Virus record (IMG/VR): IMGVR_UViG_2657245634_000002
Length of the DNA stretch: 6,182 nt
Source: a virus
Taxonomy: Duplodnaviria > Heunggongvirae > Uroviricota > Caudoviricetes
Strand: one strand, 5' to 3'
Part shown: piece after piece, positions 1 to 6,182 of the stretch
How the letters are laid out: the number at the start of each line of letters is the position of its first letter
Position numbering within the stretch: the first letter of the stretch is position 1
Made by a program: the position numbers and the translations under genes
Notes under the pieces: model-generated
Told to the model about the DNA's origin: nothing
Databases searched by the model: none
What the model saw: the letters and a program-made list of their open reading frames with translations, nothing else

Positions 1-114
1 GCCAAACGTAGCCGTTTACGCGGCAGGCTACCGGAAATCAAAACAATTGACGGCGAGATGATAAATTCATTTGCTAATTACTTGTTTTTGCCATGCTTAT
101 CCTGAGCGATAAGT

Positions 115-282
115 TCATCCATAAGGCTGTCTGCCACACTTGTCGCGTTTCTTCCAGCTGTGAACGGTTGCAACTTTCTCGCCCAGCATTTCAGCAATGC
201 GGGCTACACGGTATCCCTGAAAGTACAGCAGCATGGCCTGCCGACGGGGATCGAGATCTGCGGGTGTCAGTGTGGTGTTCAT
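115..282 (-). pseudogene. Possible truncated N-terminal fragment of terminase ATPase subunit (gpP-like), 55 codons then TGA
   Basis: Minus-strand ATG at 282 lies 142 nt upstream of and divergent from gene O, the position and orientation of gene P in P2. Translation MNTTLTPADLDPRRQAMLLYFQGYRVARIAEMLGEKVATVHSWKKRDKCGRQPYG looks like the HTH-like N-terminus of P2-family large terminases (recalled, not searched). All three minus-strand frames hit stops between 282 and 1, so no full-length P can be encoded here. Confidence 0.3.
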
Positions 283-328
283 GGCACAAACCTACAGCCT
301 TGAATGAAGGCTTTCCCCGCCTGCGGTT

Positions 329-346
329 TGTGTGGTAGTCGGTACA
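329..346 (+). promoter_or_regulatory. Candidate late-promoter activator (Ogr/Delta-type) site, TGT-N12-ACA, upstream of gene O
   Basis: Sequence TGTgtggtagtcggtACA at 329-346 matches the TGT-N12-ACA half-site arrangement of P2 late promoters. Its centre is about 55 nt upstream of a plausible start site near 390, with a weak -10-like CATAAG around 385-390 and the O start codon at 425. Confidence 0.35.
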
Positions 347-424
347 AATACCGCGCATTGTTTCACTGCCCCCATCACCGCAACCATAAGGCTCCAGTAA
401 GTTTTTTCTAACGGAGCACGGCTC

Positions 425-1258
425 ATGACAGTGAAAGCAAAGCGTTTTCGCATCGGGGTGGAAGGTGCCACCACCGACGGACGCGAAATCCAGCGTGAAT
501 GGCTGGAACAGATGGCAGCCAGCTACAACCCGGCGGTGTACACCGCGCTGATTAACCTTGAGCACATCAAGTCTTATCTGCCGGACAGCACCTTTAACCG
601 CTACGGCAAGGTGACGGCGCTGTTTGCTGAAGAAATCACGGAAGGCCCGCTGGCGGGCAAGATGGCACTGTATGCCGACGTTGAGCCAACGGAGTCCCTG
701 GTGGAACTGGTGAAAAAAGGCCAGAAATTATTCACCTCTATGGAAGTCAGCCCGAAGTTTGCAGATACGGGCAAAGCCTACCTGGTCGGCCTGGCTGCTA
801 CAGATGACCCTGCCAGTCTGGGCACTGAAATGCTGACATTCAGCGCCAGTGCAGCCCATAACCCGCTGGCAAACCGCAAGCAGAATCCTGCCAATCTCTT
901 TACCGCTGCAGAGGAAACGGTGATCGAACTGGAAGAAATCCAGGATGACAAACCGTCCCTGTTTTCCCGCGTCACGGCGCTGTTCACCAAAAAAGAGCAG
1001 TCAGACGATGCCCGGTTCTCTGATGTGCATAAGGCCGTGGAGCTGGTCGCCACTGAGCAGCAAAACCTGAGTGCGCGCACCGAAAAATCCCTGTCTGAAC
1101 AGGAAGAACGCCTGTCTGAGCTTGAGACAGCCCTGCAGGCACAGCAGACCGCCTTTAACGAACTGGTGGACAAGCTGAGCCATGAAGACAGCCGCCAGGA
1201 CTACCGCCAGCGTGCAACAGGCGGTAACGCCCCCGCTGACACTCTGACCAATTGCTGA
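425..1258 (+). CDS. O: Capsid scaffolding protein (P2 gpO family)
   Basis: 277-aa ORF with ATG start and GGAG 8 nt upstream. N-terminus FRIGVEGATTDGREI...INLEHI, central SMEVSPKFADTGKAYLVGLAATDDPASLGTE and C-terminal ATGG...TNC closely resemble P2 gpO as recalled. It sits directly upstream of the major capsid gene. Confidence 0.95.
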   Translation: MTVKAKRFRIGVEGATTDGREIQREWLEQMAASYNPAVYTALINLEHIKSYLPDSTFNRYGKVTALFAEEITEGPLAGKMALYADVEPTESLVELVKKGQKLFTSMEVSPKFADTGKAYLVGLAATDDPASLGTEMLTFSASAAHNPLANRKQNPANLFTAAEETVIELEEIQDDKPSLFSRVTALFTKKEQSDDARFSDVHKAVELVATEQQNLSARTEKSLSEQEERLSELETALQAQQTAFNELVDKLSHEDSRQDYRQRATGGNAPADTLTNC

Positions 1259-1274
1259 TGGAGCACAAAACCTG

Positions 1275-2333
1275 ATGAAGAAGAATACCCGCTTTGCTTT
1301 TAACGCTTACCTGCAGCAGCTGGCGCGTCTGAACGGTGTGGCAGTTGAAGAACTGTCCAGCAAGTTCACCGTAGAGCCGTCCGTGCAGCAGACGCTGGAA
1401 GACCAGATCCAGCAGTCCGCCGCATTCCTGACGCTGATTAACGTCACGCCAGTGACTGAGCAGTCCGGTCAGCTGCTTGGATTGGGTGTTGGCAGCACCA
1501 TTGCCGGAACCACTGATACCACCGCGAAAGAGCGTGAGCCTGTCGATCCGACGCTGATGGTCGATGTGGAATATAAATGCGAGCAGACCAACTTTGACAC
1601 GGTGCTGACCTACGCGAAGCTGGATCTGTGGGCGAAGTTTCAGGATTTCCAGGTGCGCATCCGTGACGCCATCGTGAAACGTCAGGCACTGGACCGCATC
1701 ATGATCGGCTTTAACGGCGTGAAGCGTGCGAAAACCTCCAACCGTAGCGAAAACCCGCTGCTGCAGGATGTGAACAAAGGCTGGCTGCAGAAAATCCGTG
1801 AGGATGCACCGGATCACGTCATGGGCAGCACCACCACGGGCGGTGAAACCACTCCGGGGGCGGTGAAAGTCGGGAAAGGTGGCGAATATGCCAACCTGGA
1901 CGCCGTGGTGATGGATGCCGTTAATGAGCTTATCGACGTGGTCTACCAGGACGATGACGATCTGGTGGTGATTTGTGGTCGTGAACTGCTGTCTGACAAG
2001 TATTTCCCGCTGGTCAACAAAGAGCAGGAAAACAGTGAAAAACTGGCTGCCGATATGATCATCAGCCAGAAACGCATGGGTGGCCTGCAGGCCGTGCGTG
2101 CGCCATTCTTCCCGCCGAATGCGCTGCTGATCACCCGTCTGGATAACCTGTCCATCTACTGGCAGGAAGACACCCGCCGCCGTTCAGTTATCGACAACCC
2201 GAAACGTGACCGGATTGAAAACTTTGAATCCGTTAACGAAGCCTATGTGGTTGAGGACTACCGCTGCGCCGCACTGGTGGAAAACATCCAGATTGGCGAC
2301 TTCAGCGCCGCCGCAGCAGAAACCGGAGCGTAA
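1275..2333 (+). CDS. N: Major capsid protein (P2 gpN family)
   Basis: 352-aa ORF. Motifs TRFAFNAYL, KFTVEPSVQQTL, LDLWAKFQDFQVRIRDAIVKRQALDRIMIGFNGVKRA, NLSIYWQEDTRRR and ENIQIGDFS match the P2 gpN capsid family as recalled. Position after O is conserved. Confidence 0.95.
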   Translation: MKKNTRFAFNAYLQQLARLNGVAVEELSSKFTVEPSVQQTLEDQIQQSAAFLTLINVTPVTEQSGQLLGLGVGSTIAGTTDTTAKEREPVDPTLMVDVEYKCEQTNFDTVLTYAKLDLWAKFQDFQVRIRDAIVKRQALDRIMIGFNGVKRAKTSNRSENPLLQDVNKGWLQKIREDAPDHVMGSTTTGGETTPGAVKVGKGGEYANLDAVVMDAVNELIDVVYQDDDDLVVICGRELLSDKYFPLVNKEQENSEKLAADMIISQKRMGGLQAVRAPFFPPNALLITRLDNLSIYWQEDTRRRSVIDNPKRDRIENFESVNEAYVVEDYRCAALVENIQIGDFSAAAAETGA

Positions 2334-2336
2334 TCC

Positions 2337-2987
2337 ATGAGCCTGAGTCCCGCACGGCAGCATCGCCTGCGCGTTCAGGCTGAACAGGCCGCCCGTGAGG
2401 GTGGCAGTGTTCGCCACGCGTCGGGCTATGACCTGATGCTGCTGCAACTGGCAGAAGACCGCCGCCGTCTCAAGGGCGTTCAGTCCACGGTGAAAAAAGC
2501 GGAAATCAAGGTGGAGCTGCTGCCGAAATATGCCGCCTGGGCGGAGGGCGTCCTGGCTGCCGGAGGCGCTCAACAGGATGACGTGCTGATGTACGTGATG
2601 CTGTGGCGCATTGATGCCGGAGATTATGCCGGGGCGCTGGAGATCGGGCGTCATGCCCTGCGTCATGGCTGGGTGATGCCGCTGGGTAACCGCAACGTGC
2701 AGACCGTGCTGGCAGAGGAAATGGCAGACGCCGCGCAGAGCGCAATACTTGCCGCCACCGGCTTTGATGCCGATCTGTTGTTGCAGACGCTGGAGCTGAC
2801 AGACGGTCTGGATATGCCGGACCAGTCACGGGCGCGTCTGCATAAAGCGATTGGCGCTGTCCTGAGTGAAAGCAATCCGGCTTCCGCCCTTAATCATCTC
2901 AACCATGCGTTACAGCTCGATCCCCGCTGTGGCGTGAAAAAAGACAAACAGCAGCTGGAGCGCAGACTGCGCAATGACAGCCGCTGA
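2337..2987 (+). CDS. M: Terminase small (endonuclease) subunit (P2 gpM family)
   Basis: 216-aa ORF starting 4 nt after the N stop, with GGAGCG upstream. Arg-rich N-terminus and conserved synteny O-N-M-L. Assigned by position and family resemblance. Confidence 0.88.
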   Translation: MSLSPARQHRLRVQAEQAAREGGSVRHASGYDLMLLQLAEDRRRLKGVQSTVKKAEIKVELLPKYAAWAEGVLAAGGAQQDDVLMYVMLWRIDAGDYAGALEIGRHALRHGWVMPLGNRNVQTVLAEEMADAAQSAILAATGFDADLLLQTLELTDGLDMPDQSRARLHKAIGAVLSESNPASALNHLNHALQLDPRCGVKKDKQQLERRLRNDSR

Positions 2988-3082
2988 CAGAACGTGCCCC
3001 CGCGCACGGGCGGCACGGGGTGGCGAAAGGCACTGCCACATCAAAACCCCGTCCACCGCCCTCTATTTCAGGAGAAAGCAGC

Positions 3083-3547
3083 ATGAAGTTTGTTGCGCCA
3101 GAACAGGCACCGGAACAGGCGGAAATCATCAGGAATACGCCGTTCTGGCCTGATGTGGACTTGTCGGAGTTTCGCAGTGTCATGCGCACTGACGGCACGG
3201 TGACGCAGCCGCGTTTAAAGCAGGTTGCGCTGTCGGCAATTTCGGAGGTCAACGCAGAGCTGTATGAGTTTCGCAGACGTCAGCAGATGCTGGGGTATGC
3301 GTCGCTGGCTGAGGTTCCGGCGGAACAGCTGGACGGCAAAAGTGAGCGCATTCAGCATTATTTCAACGCGGTTTACTGCTGGGCACGCGCCATGCTCAAC
3401 GAACGTTACCAGGACTATGACGCCACGGCGTCCGGTGTGAAGCGGGGCGAGGAACTGGCGGAAGCAAGCGGTGATTTGTGGCGTGACGCCCGCTGGGCCA
3501 TCAGCCGGGTGCACGATGCGCCGCACTGCACAGTGGAGCTTATCTGA
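3083..3547 (+). CDS. L: Head (capsid) completion protein (P2 gpL family)
   Basis: ATG at 3083 preceded by GGAG at 3071-3074. The ORF track's longer version begins at a GTG at 3020 with no RBS. Protein MKFVAPEQ...NTPFWPDVDLSEF...NAELYEF...DLWRDARWAISRV resembles P2 gpL. Its stop overlaps the X start (TGATGA). Confidence 0.9.
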   Translation: MKFVAPEQAPEQAEIIRNTPFWPDVDLSEFRSVMRTDGTVTQPRLKQVALSAISEVNAELYEFRRRQQMLGYASLAEVPAEQLDGKSERIQHYFNAVYCWARAMLNERYQDYDATASGVKRGEELAEASGDLWRDARWAISRVHDAPHCTVELI

Positions 3548-3750
3548 TGAAAGTGCGTGCGCATCAGTATGACACGGTGGACGCGCTTTGCTGGCGTCAT
3601 TACGGGCGCACGCAGGGTGTCACGGAGCAGGTACTGAAGGCAAATCCGGGGCTTGCCGAATACGGCCCCTTTTTACCTCACGGGCTGCAGGTGGAGCTGC
3701 CGGACATTCCGACCACCACCACCGTGCAGACCGTCCAGCTATGGGACTGA
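3547..3750 (+). CDS. X: Tail protein X (P2 gpX family, LysM-related fold)
   Basis: 67-aa ORF MKVRAHQYDTVDALCWRHYGRT...NPGLAEYGPFLPHGLQVELPDI, the right size, position and sequence character for P2 gpX. Start overlaps the L stop. Confidence 0.85.
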   Translation: MKVRAHQYDTVDALCWRHYGRTQGVTEQVLKANPGLAEYGPFLPHGLQVELPDIPTTTTVQTVQLWD

Positions 3751-3753
3751 ATT

Positions 3754-3969
3754 ATGACGCTTGAGCGAATCAGCGCCTTTATCACGTATTGCATCGCCGT
3801 CGTGCTGGCCTGGCTGGGCGATTTGTCCATCAAGGATGCCTCAACGCTGGGCGGCCTGATGATTGGTGTGCTGATGCTGGCTATCAACTGGTACTACAAA
3901 CACAAAGCCTACCAGCTTCTGCGCGACGGGCAGATCTCGCGGGAGGACTATGAATCCATCAATCGTTAA
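3754..3969 (+). CDS. Y: Holin, class II (two TMDs), pinholin-like
   Basis: 71-aa protein with two hydrophobic helices (ISAFITYCIAVVLAWLG and LGGLMIGVLMLAINWYY) and a charged C-terminal tail. Sits immediately upstream of, and overlapping, a SAR-type endolysin. It is shorter than the P2 Y holin and resembles the phage-21 S pinholin class in size and topology. Confidence 0.8.
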   Translation: MTLERISAFITYCIAVVLAWLGDLSIKDASTLGGLMIGVLMLAINWYYKHKAYQLLRDGQISREDYESINR

Positions 3970-4465
3970 ACGCTGCCTTGTCGGGGCCGTGCTGGCTATT
4001 GCTGCCACGCTGCCGGGTTTTCAGCAGCTTCACACCTCCGTGGAAGGGCTGAAACTGATTGCCGATTACGAAGGTTGTCGTCTGCAGCCGTATCAGTGCA
4101 GCGCGGGTGTCTGGACCGACGGCATTGGTAATACGTCGGGCGTCATTCCCGGCAAAACCATTACGGAGCGACAGGCAGCAGAAGGGCTGATCTCCAACGT
4201 GCTGCGTGTGGAGCGGGCGCTGGAAAGGTGTGTGAAGCAACAGCCGCCGCAGAAGGTGTATGACGCTGCGGTGTCGTTTGCCTTCAACGTGGGTACGGGC
4301 AATGCCTGCAGTTCCACGCTGGTGAAATTGCTCAATCAGCGGCGCTGGGCGGATGCGTGCCGACAGTTGCCGCGCTGGGTTTATGTGAAAGGTGTTTTTA
4401 ATCAGGGGCTGGATAACCGCCGTGCGCGGGAGATGGCCTGGTGCCTTAAAGGAGCTGGACTATGA
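3950..4465 (+). CDS. K: SAR endolysin, T4-lysozyme-like muramidase (GH24)
   Basis: 171 aa. N-terminal weakly hydrophobic Gly/Ala-rich segment KRCLVGAVLAIAATLPGF typical of a signal-anchor-release domain. Catalytic-triad-like spacing E-x8-C-x5-T in YEGCRLQPYQCSAGVWTDGIGNT. Downstream FAFNVGTGN...STL...LNQ...ACRQL.RWVY block resembles P21 R / RrrD-type lysozymes. Strong GGGAGGA RBS 4 nt before the ATG. Start lies inside the 3' end of the holin gene. Confidence 0.9.
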   Translation: MNPSIVKRCLVGAVLAIAATLPGFQQLHTSVEGLKLIADYEGCRLQPYQCSAGVWTDGIGNTSGVIPGKTITERQAAEGLISNVLRVERALERCVKQQPPQKVYDAAVSFAFNVGTGNACSSTLVKLLNQRRWADACRQLPRWVYVKGVFNQGLDNRRAREMAWCLKGAGL

Positions 4466-4890
4466 CGCGTGCGCTGGCAGTAGTGGTGGCGCTGGCACTC
4501 GTTGCGCTGGGCTGGCAGTCGTGGCGGCTTAACAGCGCCAGCCACACCATCGAAACGCAGCGCGCGGCGCTGAAAAGTAAAGCGCAGGAACTGACGAAGA
4601 AAAACAGCCAGCTGATCGGTCTGTCCATTCTGGCTGAAACCAACAACCGGGAGCAGGCGCGGCTCTACGCCGAAGCTGAACAAACCAGCGCACTGCTGAG
4701 ACAACGACAACACCGGATTGAGGAACTGAAACGTGAGAACGAGGATTTACGCCGCTGGGCTGATACTCCTTTGCCTGCTGACATTATCCGGCTGCGAAAA
4801 CGTCCGGTATTCACCGGAGGTGCAGCTTACCGTCAGTGGTTGTCCGCGAGTGACGCCGTGTCGGCTGGATCAGGCCGCGCCGCGCACTAA
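4462..4890 (+). CDS. lysB: i-spanin (Rz-like, P2 LysB family)
   Basis: 142 aa. N-terminal TMD ALAVVVALALVALGW, then a long charged predicted coiled-coil region (ETQRAALKSKAQELTKKNSQ...IEELKRENEDLRRW). ATG overlaps the endolysin stop (ATGA) with GGAG upstream. An out-of-frame lipoprotein gene is embedded at its 3' end. Confidence 0.85.
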   Translation: MTRALAVVVALALVALGWQSWRLNSASHTIETQRAALKSKAQELTKKNSQLIGLSILAETNNREQARLYAEAEQTSALLRQRQHRIEELKRENEDLRRWADTPLPADIIRLRKRPVFTGGAAYRQWLSASDAVSAGSGRAAH

Positions 4891-5023
4891 CGGTGATCTG
4901 AACGCATTGCTGGATGAAACGGAGGCCGCCTGGGCGGTCTGTGCAGACAAAGTGGACATGATTATTGCGTGTCAGGAGCGAAACAGTGAACAAACCACAA
5001 TCCCTGCGCCACGCCCTCAATAA
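4733..5023 (+). CDS. lysC: o-spanin, outer-membrane lipoprotein (Rz1-like, P2 LysC family)
   Basis: GTG start within lysB in another frame. Signal peptide with lipobox LTLSGC, a Pro- and Cys-containing mature region, short overall length. It overlaps the lysB 3' end and extends past it (overlapped rather than fully embedded spanin architecture). Confidence 0.8.
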   Translation: MRTRIYAAGLILLCLLTLSGCENVRYSPEVQLTVSGCPRVTPCRLDQAAPRTNGDLNALLDETEAAWAVCADKVDMIIACQERNSEQTTIPAPRPQ

Positions 5024-5417
5024 AGCAGTGCCTTATGTCCGTAATAACCCGGACAAACTGCATCTGTTTGTAGATAATGGTTCGCTGGTTGCCACCGGGG
5101 CCAGCTCCATGTCATGGGAGTATCGTTACACCCTGAACGTGGTGATAGAGGATTTCAGCGGCGACCAGAATCTGCTGATGGCCCCGGTTTTGCTGTGGCT
5201 GCGTGATAACCAACCTGATGCCATCAATAATCCGGCATTACGGGAAAAGCTATTCACCTTTGAGGTGGATATTCTGCGCAACGATGTCTGTGATATCAGC
5301 CTTAACCTGCAGCTGACAGAGCGTGTGGTGGTCAACACTGACGGCAGTGTGTCGAGCGTTGAAGCTATAGCGGAACCCGATGAACCTGAAGAAATGTGGA
5401 CGGTGAAACGTGGCTGA
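4986..5417 (+). CDS. R: Tail completion protein R (P2 gpR family)
   Basis: Protein ...KPQSLRHALNKAV...NPDKLHLFVDNGSL...RYTLNVVIEDFSGD..LLMAPVLLWLRDNQPD...ISLNLQLTER resembles P2 gpR. Preferred start is GTG at 4986 with AGGAG at 4974-4978. The ORF track's TTG at 4965 is an in-frame alternative. Overlaps the lysC 3' end. Confidence 0.85.
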   Translation: MNKPQSLRHALNKAVPYVRNNPDKLHLFVDNGSLVATGASSMSWEYRYTLNVVIEDFSGDQNLLMAPVLLWLRDNQPDAINNPALREKLFTFEVDILRNDVCDISLNLQLTERVVVNTDGSVSSVEAIAEPDEPEEMWTVKRG

Positions 5418-5859
5418 ATTGCAGAAGGTGGACGACTGGCTGAGTGCCTTGCTGGCGAATCTGGAGCCTGCCGCAAGAAGCCGCATGATGCGCCAGCTGG
5501 CGCAGGAACTGCGCCGGACACAGCAGCAGAATATCAGGATGCAGCGCAATCCAGATGGCAGCAGTTATGAGCCGCGACGGGCAACAGCACGCAGTAAAAA
5601 AGGCCGCATCAAACGCCAGATGTTTGCAAAGCTGCGCACCACAAAATACCTGAAAACTGCCGCCAGCGCCGATTCTGCCAGCGTGCAGTTTGCTGGCAAG
5701 GTGCAGCGTATTGCCCGTGTTCATCACTACGGCCTGCGAGAACGTATTCAACGAATTAATATGTCTATTAAGTATCCATGTAGAAAGTTGTTGGGAGTTA
5801 ATGAACAATTAATCATTGACTTAGAAAAATTATTAGTAGAGTATTTCGCTCAAAATTAG
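5410..5859 (+). CDS. S: Tail completion protein S (P2 gpS family); 3' end compositionally atypical
   Basis: 149-aa ORF whose GTG start overlaps the R stop by 8 nt, the same R/S overlap arrangement as in P2. Basic central region and VHHYGLRER motif fit gpS. The last ~35 codons (from about 5745) are AT-rich, unlike the rest of the gene. Confidence 0.85.
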   Translation: MAELQKVDDWLSALLANLEPAARSRMMRQLAQELRRTQQQNIRMQRNPDGSSYEPRRATARSKKGRIKRQMFAKLRTTKYLKTAASADSASVQFAGKVQRIARVHHYGLRERIQRINMSIKYPCRKLLGVNEQLIIDLEKLLVEYFAQN

Positions 5860-6182
5860 TACATCTGTGTGACAATATGCAACAGTTTATTCAGATTTTA
5901 CAAACTATTTCCACATGGCCGTTTGCTTTCATCTTTGGTCTATGTATTTTATATCGTCCTATAAATATGTTGTTTAGTAGATTTATTGAAAGTAATACGG
6001 CAAAAGCTAAATTAGGATTTGTGGAGCTAGAGATTGGAGAGCTAGCTAAAAAAGGAAGAGAGGCTGTTGATAATTTTAATGAGTTAACCATTGTTATGGC
6101 TAAGACTCGGTTGTTGGAGTTAGAGGTTACTAAAGAGAACTTTTCTGCAGCGTTTTCATCTAATCAGCAAGTTAAATTAAAT
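5745..6182. other. Abrupt low-GC segment: start of a horizontally acquired cargo (moron) region at the S-V variable locus
   Basis: By eye, base composition changes from well over 50% G+C across 1-5740 to roughly one third G+C from about 5745 to the window end. The boundary falls inside the 3' end of gene S, not in an intergenic gap. Confidence 0.6.
5877..6182 (+). CDS. Hypothetical membrane-anchored protein, first gene of low-GC cargo; 3' end outside window
   Basis: ATG at 5877 opens a frame that stays open for 102 codons to the window edge despite AT-rich sequence, where chance stops are frequent. Translation MQQFIQILQTISTWPFAFIFGLCILYRPINMLFSRFIESNTAKAKLGFVELEIGELAKKGREAVDNFNELTIVMAKTRLLELEVTKENFSAAFSSNQQVKLN has one N-terminal hydrophobic helix followed by a charged, helix-prone region. 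No family recognised. No clear Shine-Dalgarno; the start is 17 nt after the S stop. Confidence 0.5.
   Translation, partial: MQQFIQILQTISTWPFAFIFGLCILYRPINMLFSRFIESNTAKAKLGFVELEIGELAKKGREAVDNFNELTIVMAKTRLLELEVTKENFSAAFSSNQQVKLN

What the first reader, a model, noticed from the sequence alone, without database searches (positions are those of the whole stretch)
5745..6182. Low-GC cargo island begins at the S-V variable locus; unidentified membrane-anchored gene runs off the window
The most anomalous signal in the window. After about 5.7 kb of uniformly GC-rich P2-type late genes, composition switches sharply to AT-rich at about 5745. A new + strand ORF (5877 onward, at least 102 codons, open to the window end) encodes a protein with an N-terminal transmembrane helix and a charged helical region that I cannot place in any family. 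In P2 this exact position, between S and V, holds the non-essential orf30. Variable cargo slots in P2-like prophages (the tin/old and Z/fun loci) are established carriers of anti-phage defence and other accessory systems. A foreign-composition gene here is therefore a prime candidate for the first gene of an accessory or defence module. Only the 5' portion is visible, so function is entirely open.
Basis: partly seen in the sequence, partly recalled or inferred. Interest (0 to 1): 0.85.

Follow-up and report, generated by a model that had tools for sequence, protein, structure and literature searches.

The report
Candidate defence gene pair in P2 prophage
A foreign, AT-rich two-gene cassette (a small membrane-anchored protein plus a PcfJ-domain protein of unknown activity) fills the known variable slot between tail genes S and V of a P2-like E. 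coli prophage. In other bacteria the same pair sits among anti-phage defence genes, so it is a credible but untested candidate for an undescribed defence system.

Summary
GC content falls from 0.571 to 0.313 exactly at window position 5745 (z = -10). Homology with more than 1000 E. coli P2-like prophages ends at the same place. The break lies inside the 3' end of gene S, not after it.

The open reading frame at 5877 is real. It encodes a 127-aa protein, here called OrfA, with one N-terminal transmembrane helix and a helical cytoplasmic part. In six E. coli genomes with identical DNA it overlaps a 404-aa PcfJ-domain gene (OrfB) by 26 nt, and baseplate gene V follows. The island is 1.8 kb and holds two genes.

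Other relatives have this slot empty or filled with unrelated genes. The OrfA-OrfB pair is conserved as a unit:
- in the S-V slot of P2-like prophages of five genera;
- in a decayed prophage remnant next to a Septu defence system;
- in phage-free islands of Pantoea, Halomonas and Oceanobacter, next to AbiE, PDC-M01, PDC-S06 and ABC-3C genes.

A promoter-like element lies at a fixed distance upstream in 7 of 11 contexts. Neither protein matches any PADLOC, NCBIfam or PDB entry, and no function is published for PcfJ.

Best reading: an undescribed two-gene anti-phage module. Its function is inferred from genomic neighbours only, and its mechanism is unknown.

The parts
5410..5859 (+). Gene S (tail completion / virion morphogenesis), 149 aa. 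Codons 1-111 are typical of E. coli P2-like phages. The last ~38 codons are a divergent variant.
   Evidence: Pfam Phage_tail_S, E = 2.7e-37. Alignment with five relatives shows that conservation of Y122, R125, L127, G129 and N131 persists in the divergent tail.
5745..6182 (.). Left part of a low-GC (0.31-0.32) island. The island runs about 1.8 kb, to just past the start of gene V, which lies outside the window.
   Evidence: Change point at 5745, z = -10. Profiles. Homology with other P2-like prophages ends at 5738-5747.
5745..5859 (+). Swapped AT-rich 3' end of S. The recombination joint lies inside an essential tail gene, so the cassette arrived together with its own S terminus.
   Evidence: GC is 0.26 for the last 115 nt of S against 0.58 for its first 330 nt. 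The same holds in Atlantibacter, Kosakonia and K. aerogenes but not in C. koseri. No flanking direct repeats.
5816..5844 (+). Putative sigma-70 promoter of the cassette: -35 TTGACT (5816-5821), 17-nt spacer, -10 GAGTAT (5839-5844). It is embedded in the last codons of S. Inferred, not shown.
   Evidence: TTGAC[AT]-N17-xAxxAT lies 57-63 nt upstream of the orfA start in 7 of 11 contexts, which fall into three sequence-divergent groups. The generic promoter scan did not flag it because its -10 hexamer is weak.
5877..6182 (+). orfA, first 102 of 127 codons. It encodes a single-pass membrane protein with a conserved cytoplasmic helical hairpin. It is the first gene of the two-gene cassette, and orfB (404 aa, PcfJ domain) overlaps its last 26 nt outside the window.
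   Evidence: ORF and translation. 26 homologous clusters with invariant W14-P15 and K43-A-K..G-F.E.E.G motifs. Hydropathy. AF2 model with three helices. Full gene and neighbours in E. coli WAT and 15A.

Best explanation
The window ends in the left edge of a 1.8-kb mobile two-gene cassette. The cassette occupies the S-V (orf30) cargo slot of a P2-like prophage.

Shown:
- The cassette is foreign in composition.
- It entered by recombination within S and at the V promoter region.
- It encodes OrfA (127 aa; one N-terminal transmembrane helix, with the positive charges after it, so the helical domain should face the cytoplasm) and OrfB (404 aa; soluble; N-terminal beta domain, helical middle, C-terminal PcfJ domain).
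- The two genes overlap and travel together across Enterobacterales, Halomonas and Oceanobacter.

Inferred:
- The pair has its own sigma-70 promoter and so can be expressed from the prophage.
- It works as an anti-phage (inter-phage competition) module that benefits the lysogen.

Proposed mechanism (speculative): OrfA tethers OrfB to the inner membrane, where phage genomes enter. OrfB is the effector. Its PcfJ domain carries an invariant polar set (H268, E311, C318, Y322, R343, T345, N365) that looks like an active site. It includes an E311 ... E347 ... [Q/E]359-x-K361 pattern on an alpha-beta-beta-beta-alpha unit, which recalls PD-(D/E)xK nucleases. The helical middle has invariant basic residues (K135, R136, K158). 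OrfB may therefore bind and cut or modify invading nucleic acid. Alternatively, OrfA may be a membrane-damaging abortive-infection effector controlled by OrfB.

Approximate confidence by step: mobile two-gene cargo cassette 0.95; anti-phage function 0.5; membrane-tethered nucleic-acid-targeting mechanism 0.15.
For: Cassette and slot:
- GC break and end of homology at 5745.
- Two genes, then V.
- The P_V activator dyad TGT-N12-ACA is retained right after the orfB stop.
- The slot is empty or differently filled in relatives and in P2. This variation is also documented in PMC6823313.

Pair conserved as a unit:
- P2 S-V slot in Kosakonia, C. koseri, K. aerogenes and Atlantibacter.
- Outside phages in Pectobacterium, two Pantoea, Halomonas (OrfB only 27% identical) and Oceanobacter.

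Defence neighbours:
- PtuA 2e-119 and PtuB 2e-79 directly upstream in an Enterobacter soli prophage remnant that has kept only the pair and a V fragment.
- PDC-M01A/B in Pantoea A4, PDC-S06 (E = 0) and PDC-M06B in Halomonas, AbiEii in Pantoea.
- ABC-3C / PDC-M68B plus RelE and an integrase in Oceanobacter.

Other support:
- Position-conserved promoter-like element.
- The same prophage carries the validated DprA-PRTase system in its other hotspot (PMC9122126).
- The tail-gene region of P2 is reported to hold 16% of P2 defence systems (PMC13586616).
- Invariant residues of the wider family.
- Topology of the OrfB model.
Against: - Neither protein matches any PADLOC 2.0 or NCBIfam model, and no experiment exists.
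- PcfJ-like proteins are common in virulent phages (LP65, A9, Shbh1, ME3, EFDG1) and on conjugative plasmids. That fits a function serving the mobile element itself, such as counter-defence.
- In P2-like prophages the pair always points the same way as the late genes. No terminator lies before or after it, and in two cases only 7-17 nt separate it from S. It would therefore also be transcribed late in lytic growth.
- H317 is N in the Halomonas homologue.
- In the wider OrfB-like family, the OrfA partner is absent and many neighbours are housekeeping genes.
Confidence: 0.5

Rival explanations
1. Counter-defence or establishment factor. The PcfJ-domain protein helps the mobile element (phage or plasmid) overcome host immunity or process its own DNA on entry. 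The P2-like phage carries it for its own benefit.
For: 23 significant structural matches in the viral library are PcfJ-like proteins, many from strictly virulent phages. PcfJ domain-containing genes are annotated on Listeria, Marinomonas and Pantoea plasmids. The name comes from the pCF10 conjugative plasmid of Enterococcus (established knowledge). The profile family is large, with 3031 clusters. Counter-defence genes also gather in hotspots.
Against: The specific OrfA-OrfB clade sits in chromosomal islands with no phage or conjugation genes nearby (Halomonas downstream of guaA, Oceanobacter, Pantoea A4). It is also kept in a prophage remnant that can no longer make virions. A counter-defence gene would have no purpose there. 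A membrane-anchored partner is unusual for known anti-restriction proteins.
Confidence: 0.17
2. Lytic-cycle accessory function of the phage itself. The pair is co-transcribed with the late operons and acts in lysis timing, envelope remodelling, or exclusion of competitors only during productive growth.
For: The pair has the same orientation as S and V in every P2-like prophage examined. Only 7-17 nt separate it from S in E. coli and Atlantibacter. No terminator-like site lies on either side. OrfA is a small membrane protein like many lysis or exclusion factors. The slot borders the lysis genes.
Against: The pair is absent from 1019 of 1025 E. coli prophages with the same S gene and from all 50,697 phage records, so it is dispensable. 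It occurs and is conserved outside any phage. It carries a position-conserved promoter-like element of its own.
Confidence: 0.12
3. Selfish addiction module (toxin-antitoxin-like) that stabilises the island or prophage without protecting against phages.
For: The two genes are overlapping, translationally coupled and horizontally mobile, with a patchy distribution. They lie near other TA genes (AbiE, RelE).
Against: At 127 and 404 aa with a membrane anchor, the pair is not a typical type II TA architecture. There is no match to any TA family in Pfam or PADLOC. Many TA systems are themselves defence systems, so this rival overlaps the main reading.
Confidence: 0.1
4. Functionless passenger DNA or decaying genes that hitch-hiked through recombination at S and V.
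For: Rare in E. coli, foreign composition, no known function.
Against: Both reading frames are intact with conserved lengths (119-129 and 373-404 aa) and conserved motifs, down to 46% (OrfA) and 27% (OrfB) identity across bacterial orders.
Confidence: 0.03

Closest known systems
P2 orf30 locus and other cargo of the S-V slot in P2-like phages
   Same: Exactly the same position, between S and the P_V promoter. The cargo is non-essential, variable between relatives and foreign in composition (PMC6823313).
   Different: P2 orf30, the 287-aa gene of E. coli YZLc4-1 and the 175-aa gene of phage Cartapus are single genes on the minus strand. They are unrelated to this pair and none of them has a Pfam or PADLOC match. 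Here the cargo is a two-gene + strand operon that brought its own S 3' end.
Defence hotspots of P2-like prophages (tin/old and Z/fun; the cos-adjacent A-Q hotspot of Rousset et al. 2022, PMC9122126)
   Same: Same kind of phage and the same logic: variable, AT-rich cargo between conserved core genes. The same prophage carries validated DprA-PRTase cargo at the A-Q hotspot. The tail-gene region is now counted as a minor defence hotspot (PMC13586616).
   Different: A different slot. The cargo here is not among the systems recognised by PADLOC, and no accessible paper mentions it.
PcfJ-like protein family (Pfam PF14284, named after pCF10 PcfJ)
   Same: OrfB residues 238-368 match at 45 bits against a cut-off of 25. 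All 35 diverse relatives match. They share the L-I-x-E-G-x-x-M-x-H-C-x-x-x-Y signature.
   Different: The family has no assigned function. OrfB belongs to a ~390-400-aa sub-architecture with extra N-terminal domains. Only its closest clade has the OrfA membrane partner.
Kiwa (KwaA membrane protein + KwaB cytosolic effector) and RexAB-type two-gene membrane-linked defence systems (comparison from my own knowledge)
   Same: A two-gene operon pairing a small membrane protein with a larger soluble protein, found in defence islands and prophages. It offers a plausible working model of surveillance at the membrane.
   Different: No sequence relationship and no PADLOC hit to KwaA/KwaB or any other model. 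OrfA has one transmembrane helix, not four. The resemblance is in architecture only.
PD-(D/E)xK nucleases and GNAT acetyltransferases (fold-level leads)
   Different: No significant fold or profile match to either superfamily. The second half of the GNAT fold is missing. The invariant C318, Y322, H268 and N365 are not part of either canonical site.

Membership tests
PcfJ-like protein family (PF14284) - applies to OrfB | Score above Pfam's gathering cut-off for the PcfJ model | tested here: met
   45 bits against a cut-off of 25, E = 1.2e-11, residues 238-368. 35 of 35 diverse relatives also match.
PcfJ-like protein family (PF14284) - applies to OrfB | Structural similarity to other PcfJ-like proteins | tested here: met
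   Foldseek against BFVD gives 23 hits with E <= 1e-3. All the named ones are 'PcfJ-like', but TM-scores are low (0.2-0.27) because the domains are arranged differently.
Cargo of the P2 S-V (orf30) variable slot | Located between tail gene S and the P_V promoter / gene V of a P2-like prophage | tested here: met
   S 12111-12560, orfA 12578-12961, orfB 12936-14150, Ogr-type dyad 14163-14180, V 14225 in L001. The same holds in a second genome.
Cargo of the P2 S-V (orf30) variable slot | Content varies between relatives while the flanks stay constant; foreign composition | tested here: met
   Slot states seen: empty (69 nt), about 1 kb unannotated, a 287-aa gene, a 175-aa gene, orf30, or this pair. 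Island GC is 0.32 against 0.57. Present in 6 of 1025 genomes.
Known or candidate anti-phage defence systems (PADLOC-DB 2.0, including PDC/HEC candidates) | HMM match of the component proteins | tested here: not met
   OrfA has no hit. OrfB has only ShosA at E = 0.019 over 36 residues. NCBIfam gives nothing.
Anti-phage defence system (generic, by genomic criteria) | Recurrent co-location with known defence genes in independent genomic contexts | tested here: met
   Septu, AbiEii, PDC-M01A/B, PDC-S06 plus PDC-M06B, and ABC-3C/PDC-M68B lie within a few kb in 5 of 6 contexts outside intact prophages. No formal enrichment statistic was computed.
Anti-phage defence system (generic) | Protection against phage infection when expressed in a sensitive host | not testable with these tools
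   Needs cloning and plaque or infection assays.
Kiwa | KwaA (multi-pass membrane protein) plus KwaB (DUF4868) | tested here: not met
   No PADLOC or Pfam hit to either. OrfA has a single hydrophobic segment.
PD-(D/E)xK nuclease superfamily | alpha-beta-beta-beta-alpha-beta core with acidic residues and (D/E/Q)xK on adjacent strands | tested here: inconclusive
GNAT acetyltransferases | Complete GNAT fold with an acetyl-CoA-binding beta4-alpha3 motif | tested here: inconclusive
Type II toxin-antitoxin module | Two small co-transcribed genes, one toxic and one neutralising, matching known TA families | tested here: not met
   The genes overlap but match no TA family. Toxicity cannot be tested here.

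The most novel reading that the evidence does not exclude
OrfA-OrfB is a previously unrecognised family of anti-phage defence system. Its effector uses the PcfJ domain as a new catalytic module, possibly a membrane-tethered enzyme that targets nucleic acid. If so, this would give the first function to a domain present in thousands of phage, plasmid and island proteins, and would suggest that PcfJ proteins in general are weapons in conflicts between mobile elements.
Probability: 0.4. Interest if true: 0.75.

Novelty: new variant of a known kind. Interest (0 to 1): 0.6.

Why it matters
P2-like prophages have already yielded several new immune systems, but nearly all came from the cos-adjacent and tin/old hotspots. 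The S-V slot has hardly been mined.

This cassette is compact (1.7 kb) and appears to carry its own promoter. It is conserved as a pair across bacterial orders and is absent from the current defence catalogues searched here, so it can be cloned and tested directly.

A positive result would add a defence family. It would also give a first functional handle on the PcfJ domain, for which no function was found in the searched literature. The full-length OrfB profile detects 3031 cluster representatives at 50% identity, and PcfJ-like proteins occur in virulent phages and on plasmids.

The locus also shows how such cargo moves. It does not insert between genes. It is exchanged by recombination inside an essential tail gene, so a variant S C-terminus and a variant P_V promoter region travel with it.

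Tried and rejected
- Sequence families. Pfam, PADLOC, PHROGs and NCBIfam give nothing for OrfA. OrfB yields only PcfJ and PHROGs of unknown function.
- Solved structures by sequence. No hit at E <= 10 for either profile.
- Weak-hit census. Running 35 diverse relatives against Pfam at E <= 10 showed no recurring second family, so the nuclease and GNAT ideas stay unsupported.
- Long relatives checked for informative domain fusions. Only a DnaA ATPase and a tubulin fragment appeared, once each. I judge these likely gene-calling or adjacency artefacts.
- Literature. Searches for PcfJ, PF14284 and the two RefSeq accessions turned up no functional study.
- Insertion scars. No direct or inverted repeats flank the island beyond chance-sized matches, so I rejected a site-specific insertion model.
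- Generic promoter and terminator scan. Counts were at the chance level. The conserved promoter-like element was found only by comparing contexts.
A hand-made degenerate DNA pattern was used instead.
- OrfA partner in the wider family. It is absent outside the closest clade, so the two-gene architecture is clade-specific.
- Neighbours of the wider family. The census shows scattered defence genes among housekeeping genes. There was no control set, so I treat it as weak support only.

Full report
**1. The observation**

The window is a run of P2-type late genes: O, N, M, L, X, holin, lysozyme, lysB/lysC, R and S.
- GC is 0.571 over bases 1-5744 and 0.313 over 5745-6182.
- A two-segment likelihood scan places the change at base 5745.
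- No 438-nt window elsewhere falls below 0.50, which gives z = -10.

Comparison with other genomes gives the same boundary. Of 5426 complete E. coli genomes, 1025 match the S region. In all but six the match stops at window 5738-5747, and 39 phage records stop there too.

The ORF at 5877 is open to the end of the window. The break lies inside gene S (5410-5859). The last ~38 codons of S are AT-rich and encode a divergent but recognisably homologous C-terminus.

**2. What lies beyond the window**

Six E. coli genomes carry 5300-6182 at 99.9-100% identity. I examined two of them, strains WAT and O111:H21 15A. They give the same continuation with identical protein accessions:
- S;
- a 17-nt gap;
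- orfA (127 aa);
- orfB (404 aa, annotated 'PcfJ domain-containing'), which overlaps orfA by 26 nt;
- a 74-nt gap that contains a TGT-N12-ACA dyad like the activator site of the P2 V promoter;
- gene V.

Low GC (0.32) spans about 1.8 kb and ends just inside V. No terminator-like site flanks the pair. No repeats mark its ends. The prophage looks complete. It also carries phosphoribosyltransferase and DprA genes between A and Q. That pairing was shown experimentally to protect against T7 and lambda (PMC9122126).

**3. The slot is variable**

Phages and prophages with the same S and V flanks show several states in this interval:
- 69 nt and no gene (E. coli 503440 and phage 500465-1);
- about 1 kb with no annotation (SCU-485);
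- a 287-aa minus-strand gene (YZLc4-1);
- a 175-aa minus-strand gene (phage Cartapus);
- orf30 in P2 itself.

Phage R18C has yet another gene there (PMC6823313). A 2026 survey attributes 16% of P2 defence systems to a hotspot within the tail genes, 'downstream of GpL' (PMC13586616).

**4. The two proteins**

*OrfA.* It has one hydrophobic segment (residues 7-25, Kyte-Doolittle 1.76). There is no charge before it and several positive residues follow it, which suggests a cytoplasmic C-terminus. The model is three helices: 2-38, 42-92 and 95-124. The last two form the confident part. Twenty-six sequence clusters exist, all 119-129 aa apart from one partial sequence. They share an invariant W-P in the membrane segment and a strongly conserved K-A-K-x-G-F-x-E-x-E-x-G ... 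A-x-D ... R-x-L-E-L block. OrfA matches no family in any library and no PDB sequence.

*OrfB.* It is soluble. Its model (pLDDT 79.6) has three parts: a five-strand N-terminal beta unit, a helical middle, and a C-terminal beta-alpha-alpha-beta-beta-beta-alpha unit that corresponds to Pfam PcfJ (45 bits, cut-off 25).

A full-library profile search finds 3031 cluster representatives with E <= 1e-3 and 37 with E <= 1e-30. Many are about 390-400 aa and match end to end. Across 35 members down to 21% identity, seven positions are invariant: H268, E311, C318, Y322, R343, T345 and N365. Nearly invariant are K158, D238, W271, M315, H317, E347 and W379. In a 12-member subset, R136 is also invariant, and K135 and K361 are nearly so. 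Position 359 is Q or E in those 12 sequences.

This set of polar residues looks like an active site. E311 ... E347 ... [Q/E]359-x-K361 on helix-strand-strand recalls PD-(D/E)xK nucleases. That is only a lead:
- Foldseek against PDB finds nothing.
- A census of weak Pfam hits across the 35 members shows no second family.

The viral structure library returns 23 PcfJ-like proteins, many from virulent phages. I found no functional study of PcfJ in the searchable literature.

**5. The pair is a mobile unit**

With OrfB identity falling from 100% to 27%, the orfA-orfB arrangement persists. The genes overlap by 26 nt or 4 nt, or are separated by 2-6 nt. The contexts are:

| Context | Organisms |
|---|---|
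| S-V slot of P2-like prophages | E. coli, Kosakonia, Citrobacter koseri, Klebsiella aerogenes, Atlantibacter |
| Decayed prophage remnant (only the pair and a V fragment survive, between chromosomal genes) | Enterobacter soli |
| Chromosomal or plasmid islands without phage structural genes | Pectobacterium, two Pantoea, Halomonas cupida, Oceanobacter antarcticus |

A degenerate DNA pattern for the PcfJ signature found 62 more loci in many phyla. Only the closest clade has the OrfA partner.

**6. Neighbours**

Outside intact prophages, the genes next to the pair are often defence genes:

| Organism | Neighbouring genes |
|---|---|
| Enterobacter soli | Septu: PtuA 2e-119, PtuB 2e-79 |
| Pantoea A4 | PDC-M01A/B |
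| Halomonas | PDC-S06 (E = 0) and PDC-M06B |
| Pantoea YU22 / piersonii | AbiEi/AbiEii-like genes and a large SMC-type ATPase |
| Oceanobacter | ABC-3C-type ATPase with CTD10 protein (PDC-M68B), a RelE toxin and an integrase |
| Pectobacterium | Nothing recognisable, apart from a CI-type repressor gene in one assembly |

For the wider OrfB-like family I sampled 150 neighbour ORFs. They include scattered defence hits (MADS, WYL, AriA, type I methylase, AbiEi, ZacA, MzaA, DpdJ, Cas1) among housekeeping genes. I had no control set, so I count this as weak support.

**7. Expression**

The generic promoter scan found nothing above chance. Comparing contexts shows TTGAC[AT]-N17-xAxxAT at 57-63 nt before the orfA start in 7 of 11 contexts. 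These belong to three groups whose surrounding sequence is otherwise dissimilar.

In the window this element is at 5816-5844, inside the last codons of S. In E. coli, Atlantibacter, Kosakonia and K. aerogenes the 3' end of S is AT-rich like the cassette. In C. koseri S is normal and a 212-nt spacer follows it.

I infer that the cassette carries its own promoter. I also infer that cassette exchange happens by recombination within S on one side and at the P_V / V start on the other. Because no terminator intervenes, late transcripts probably also read through the pair. This keeps a lytic-cycle role possible.

**8. Interpretation**

What is shown: a foreign, conserved, mobile two-gene cassette occupies a known variable slot.

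What is inferred: the cassette is an anti-phage module. The grounds are:
- its defence-gene neighbours in five separate settings;
- its retention in a dead prophage beside Septu;
- its patchy distribution;
- its apparent own promoter;
- the record of P2 hotspots as defence carriers.

I put this at about 0.5.

The mechanism is open. The model I favour is OrfA holding OrfB at the inner membrane, with the PcfJ domain acting enzymatically on incoming phage material. An abortive-infection variant, with OrfA as a membrane effector, is equally compatible with the data.

The main rival is a function that serves mobile elements themselves, such as counter-defence or establishment. This is suggested by PcfJ-like proteins in virulent phages and on plasmids. 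Other rivals are a late lytic function, a pure addiction module, and inert DNA. The last is made very unlikely by the conservation pattern.

**9. Novelty and score**

The hotspot and the general logic are known. The cargo is not in PADLOC 2.0, NCBIfam, PDB or the accessible literature, and its core domain has no assigned function. I class it as a new variant of a known kind.

Interest is 0.6. It is a concrete candidate that is easy to test and could give the PcfJ domain a function. It rests on genomic association only.

Noticed in passing
L001 2624-4160 (E. coli WAT; same prophage, outside the window, between replication gene A and portal gene Q): The prophage also carries phosphoribosyltransferase and DprA genes in the cos-adjacent hotspot. 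This pairing was shown to protect against T7 and lambda (PMC9122126). The prophage therefore holds cargo in two separate slots.
   Followed up: partly
window 3950-4890 (lysozyme 3950-4465, lysB 4462-4890): No lysA-type gene lies between the lysozyme and lysB genes here. Relatives L002, L012, L013, L014, L006 and L079 have a 125-aa LysA / DNZ54_00345 gene at that point. This is a second presence/absence difference within the late region.
   Followed up: no
L083-L086 (Enterobacter soli and related metagenome contigs), about 1835-7029: A decayed P2-like remnant keeps only Septu (PtuA/PtuB), the orfA-orfB pair and a 246-aa V-derived ORF. It is flanked by chromosomal genes (short-chain dehydrogenase, Asp-Al_Ex transporter, ybjM). 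It looks like selective retention of cargo after the phage was lost.
   Followed up: partly
L002 6584-7450 (-) and L015 4069-4599 (-): Alternative S-V cargo genes of 287 aa (E. coli YZLc4-1) and 175 aa (phage Cartapus) have no Pfam or PADLOC match either. These are further unexplored candidates in the same slot.
   Followed up: partly
L037 1828-2649, L048 4592-5443, and L078 upstream of its OrfB-like gene (Desulfococcus-type MAGs): In these distant relatives the OrfB-like gene is preceded by a 274-284-aa ORF with a strongly hydrophobic N-terminal segment (KD about 2.3-2.4). It is unrelated in sequence to OrfA and may be an analogous membrane partner.
   Followed up: no
L001 18193-19970: A recombinase-family (invertase-type) gene sits next to minus-strand tail-fibre and tail-fibre-assembly genes, downstream of the plus-strand tail-fibre gene. 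This suggests an invertible host-range segment in this prophage.
   Followed up: no
window 5891-6091 (-): A 66-aa minus-strand ORF lies entirely inside orfA on the opposite strand. It is not annotated in the two genomes examined. I take it to be a chance ORF in AT-rich DNA.
   Followed up: partly
window 1-5299 versus L001: The window is not an exact substring of the WAT locus, although 5300-6182 is 100% identical. The window therefore comes from a related prophage that differs somewhere upstream. I did not identify the source genome.
   Followed up: no
OrfB residues 125-198 (L001 about 13308-13529): Two sub-threshold hits fall on the same helical stretch, which contains the conserved K135 and R136; K158 is conserved as well. 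One is to the C-terminal part of the DprA-like ShosA (PADLOC, E = 0.019, OrfB residues 125-160). The other is to a helical domain of oedema factor (Pfam, E = 0.0028, residues 125-198). This is a possible helix-turn-helix-like nucleic-acid-binding element.
   Followed up: no
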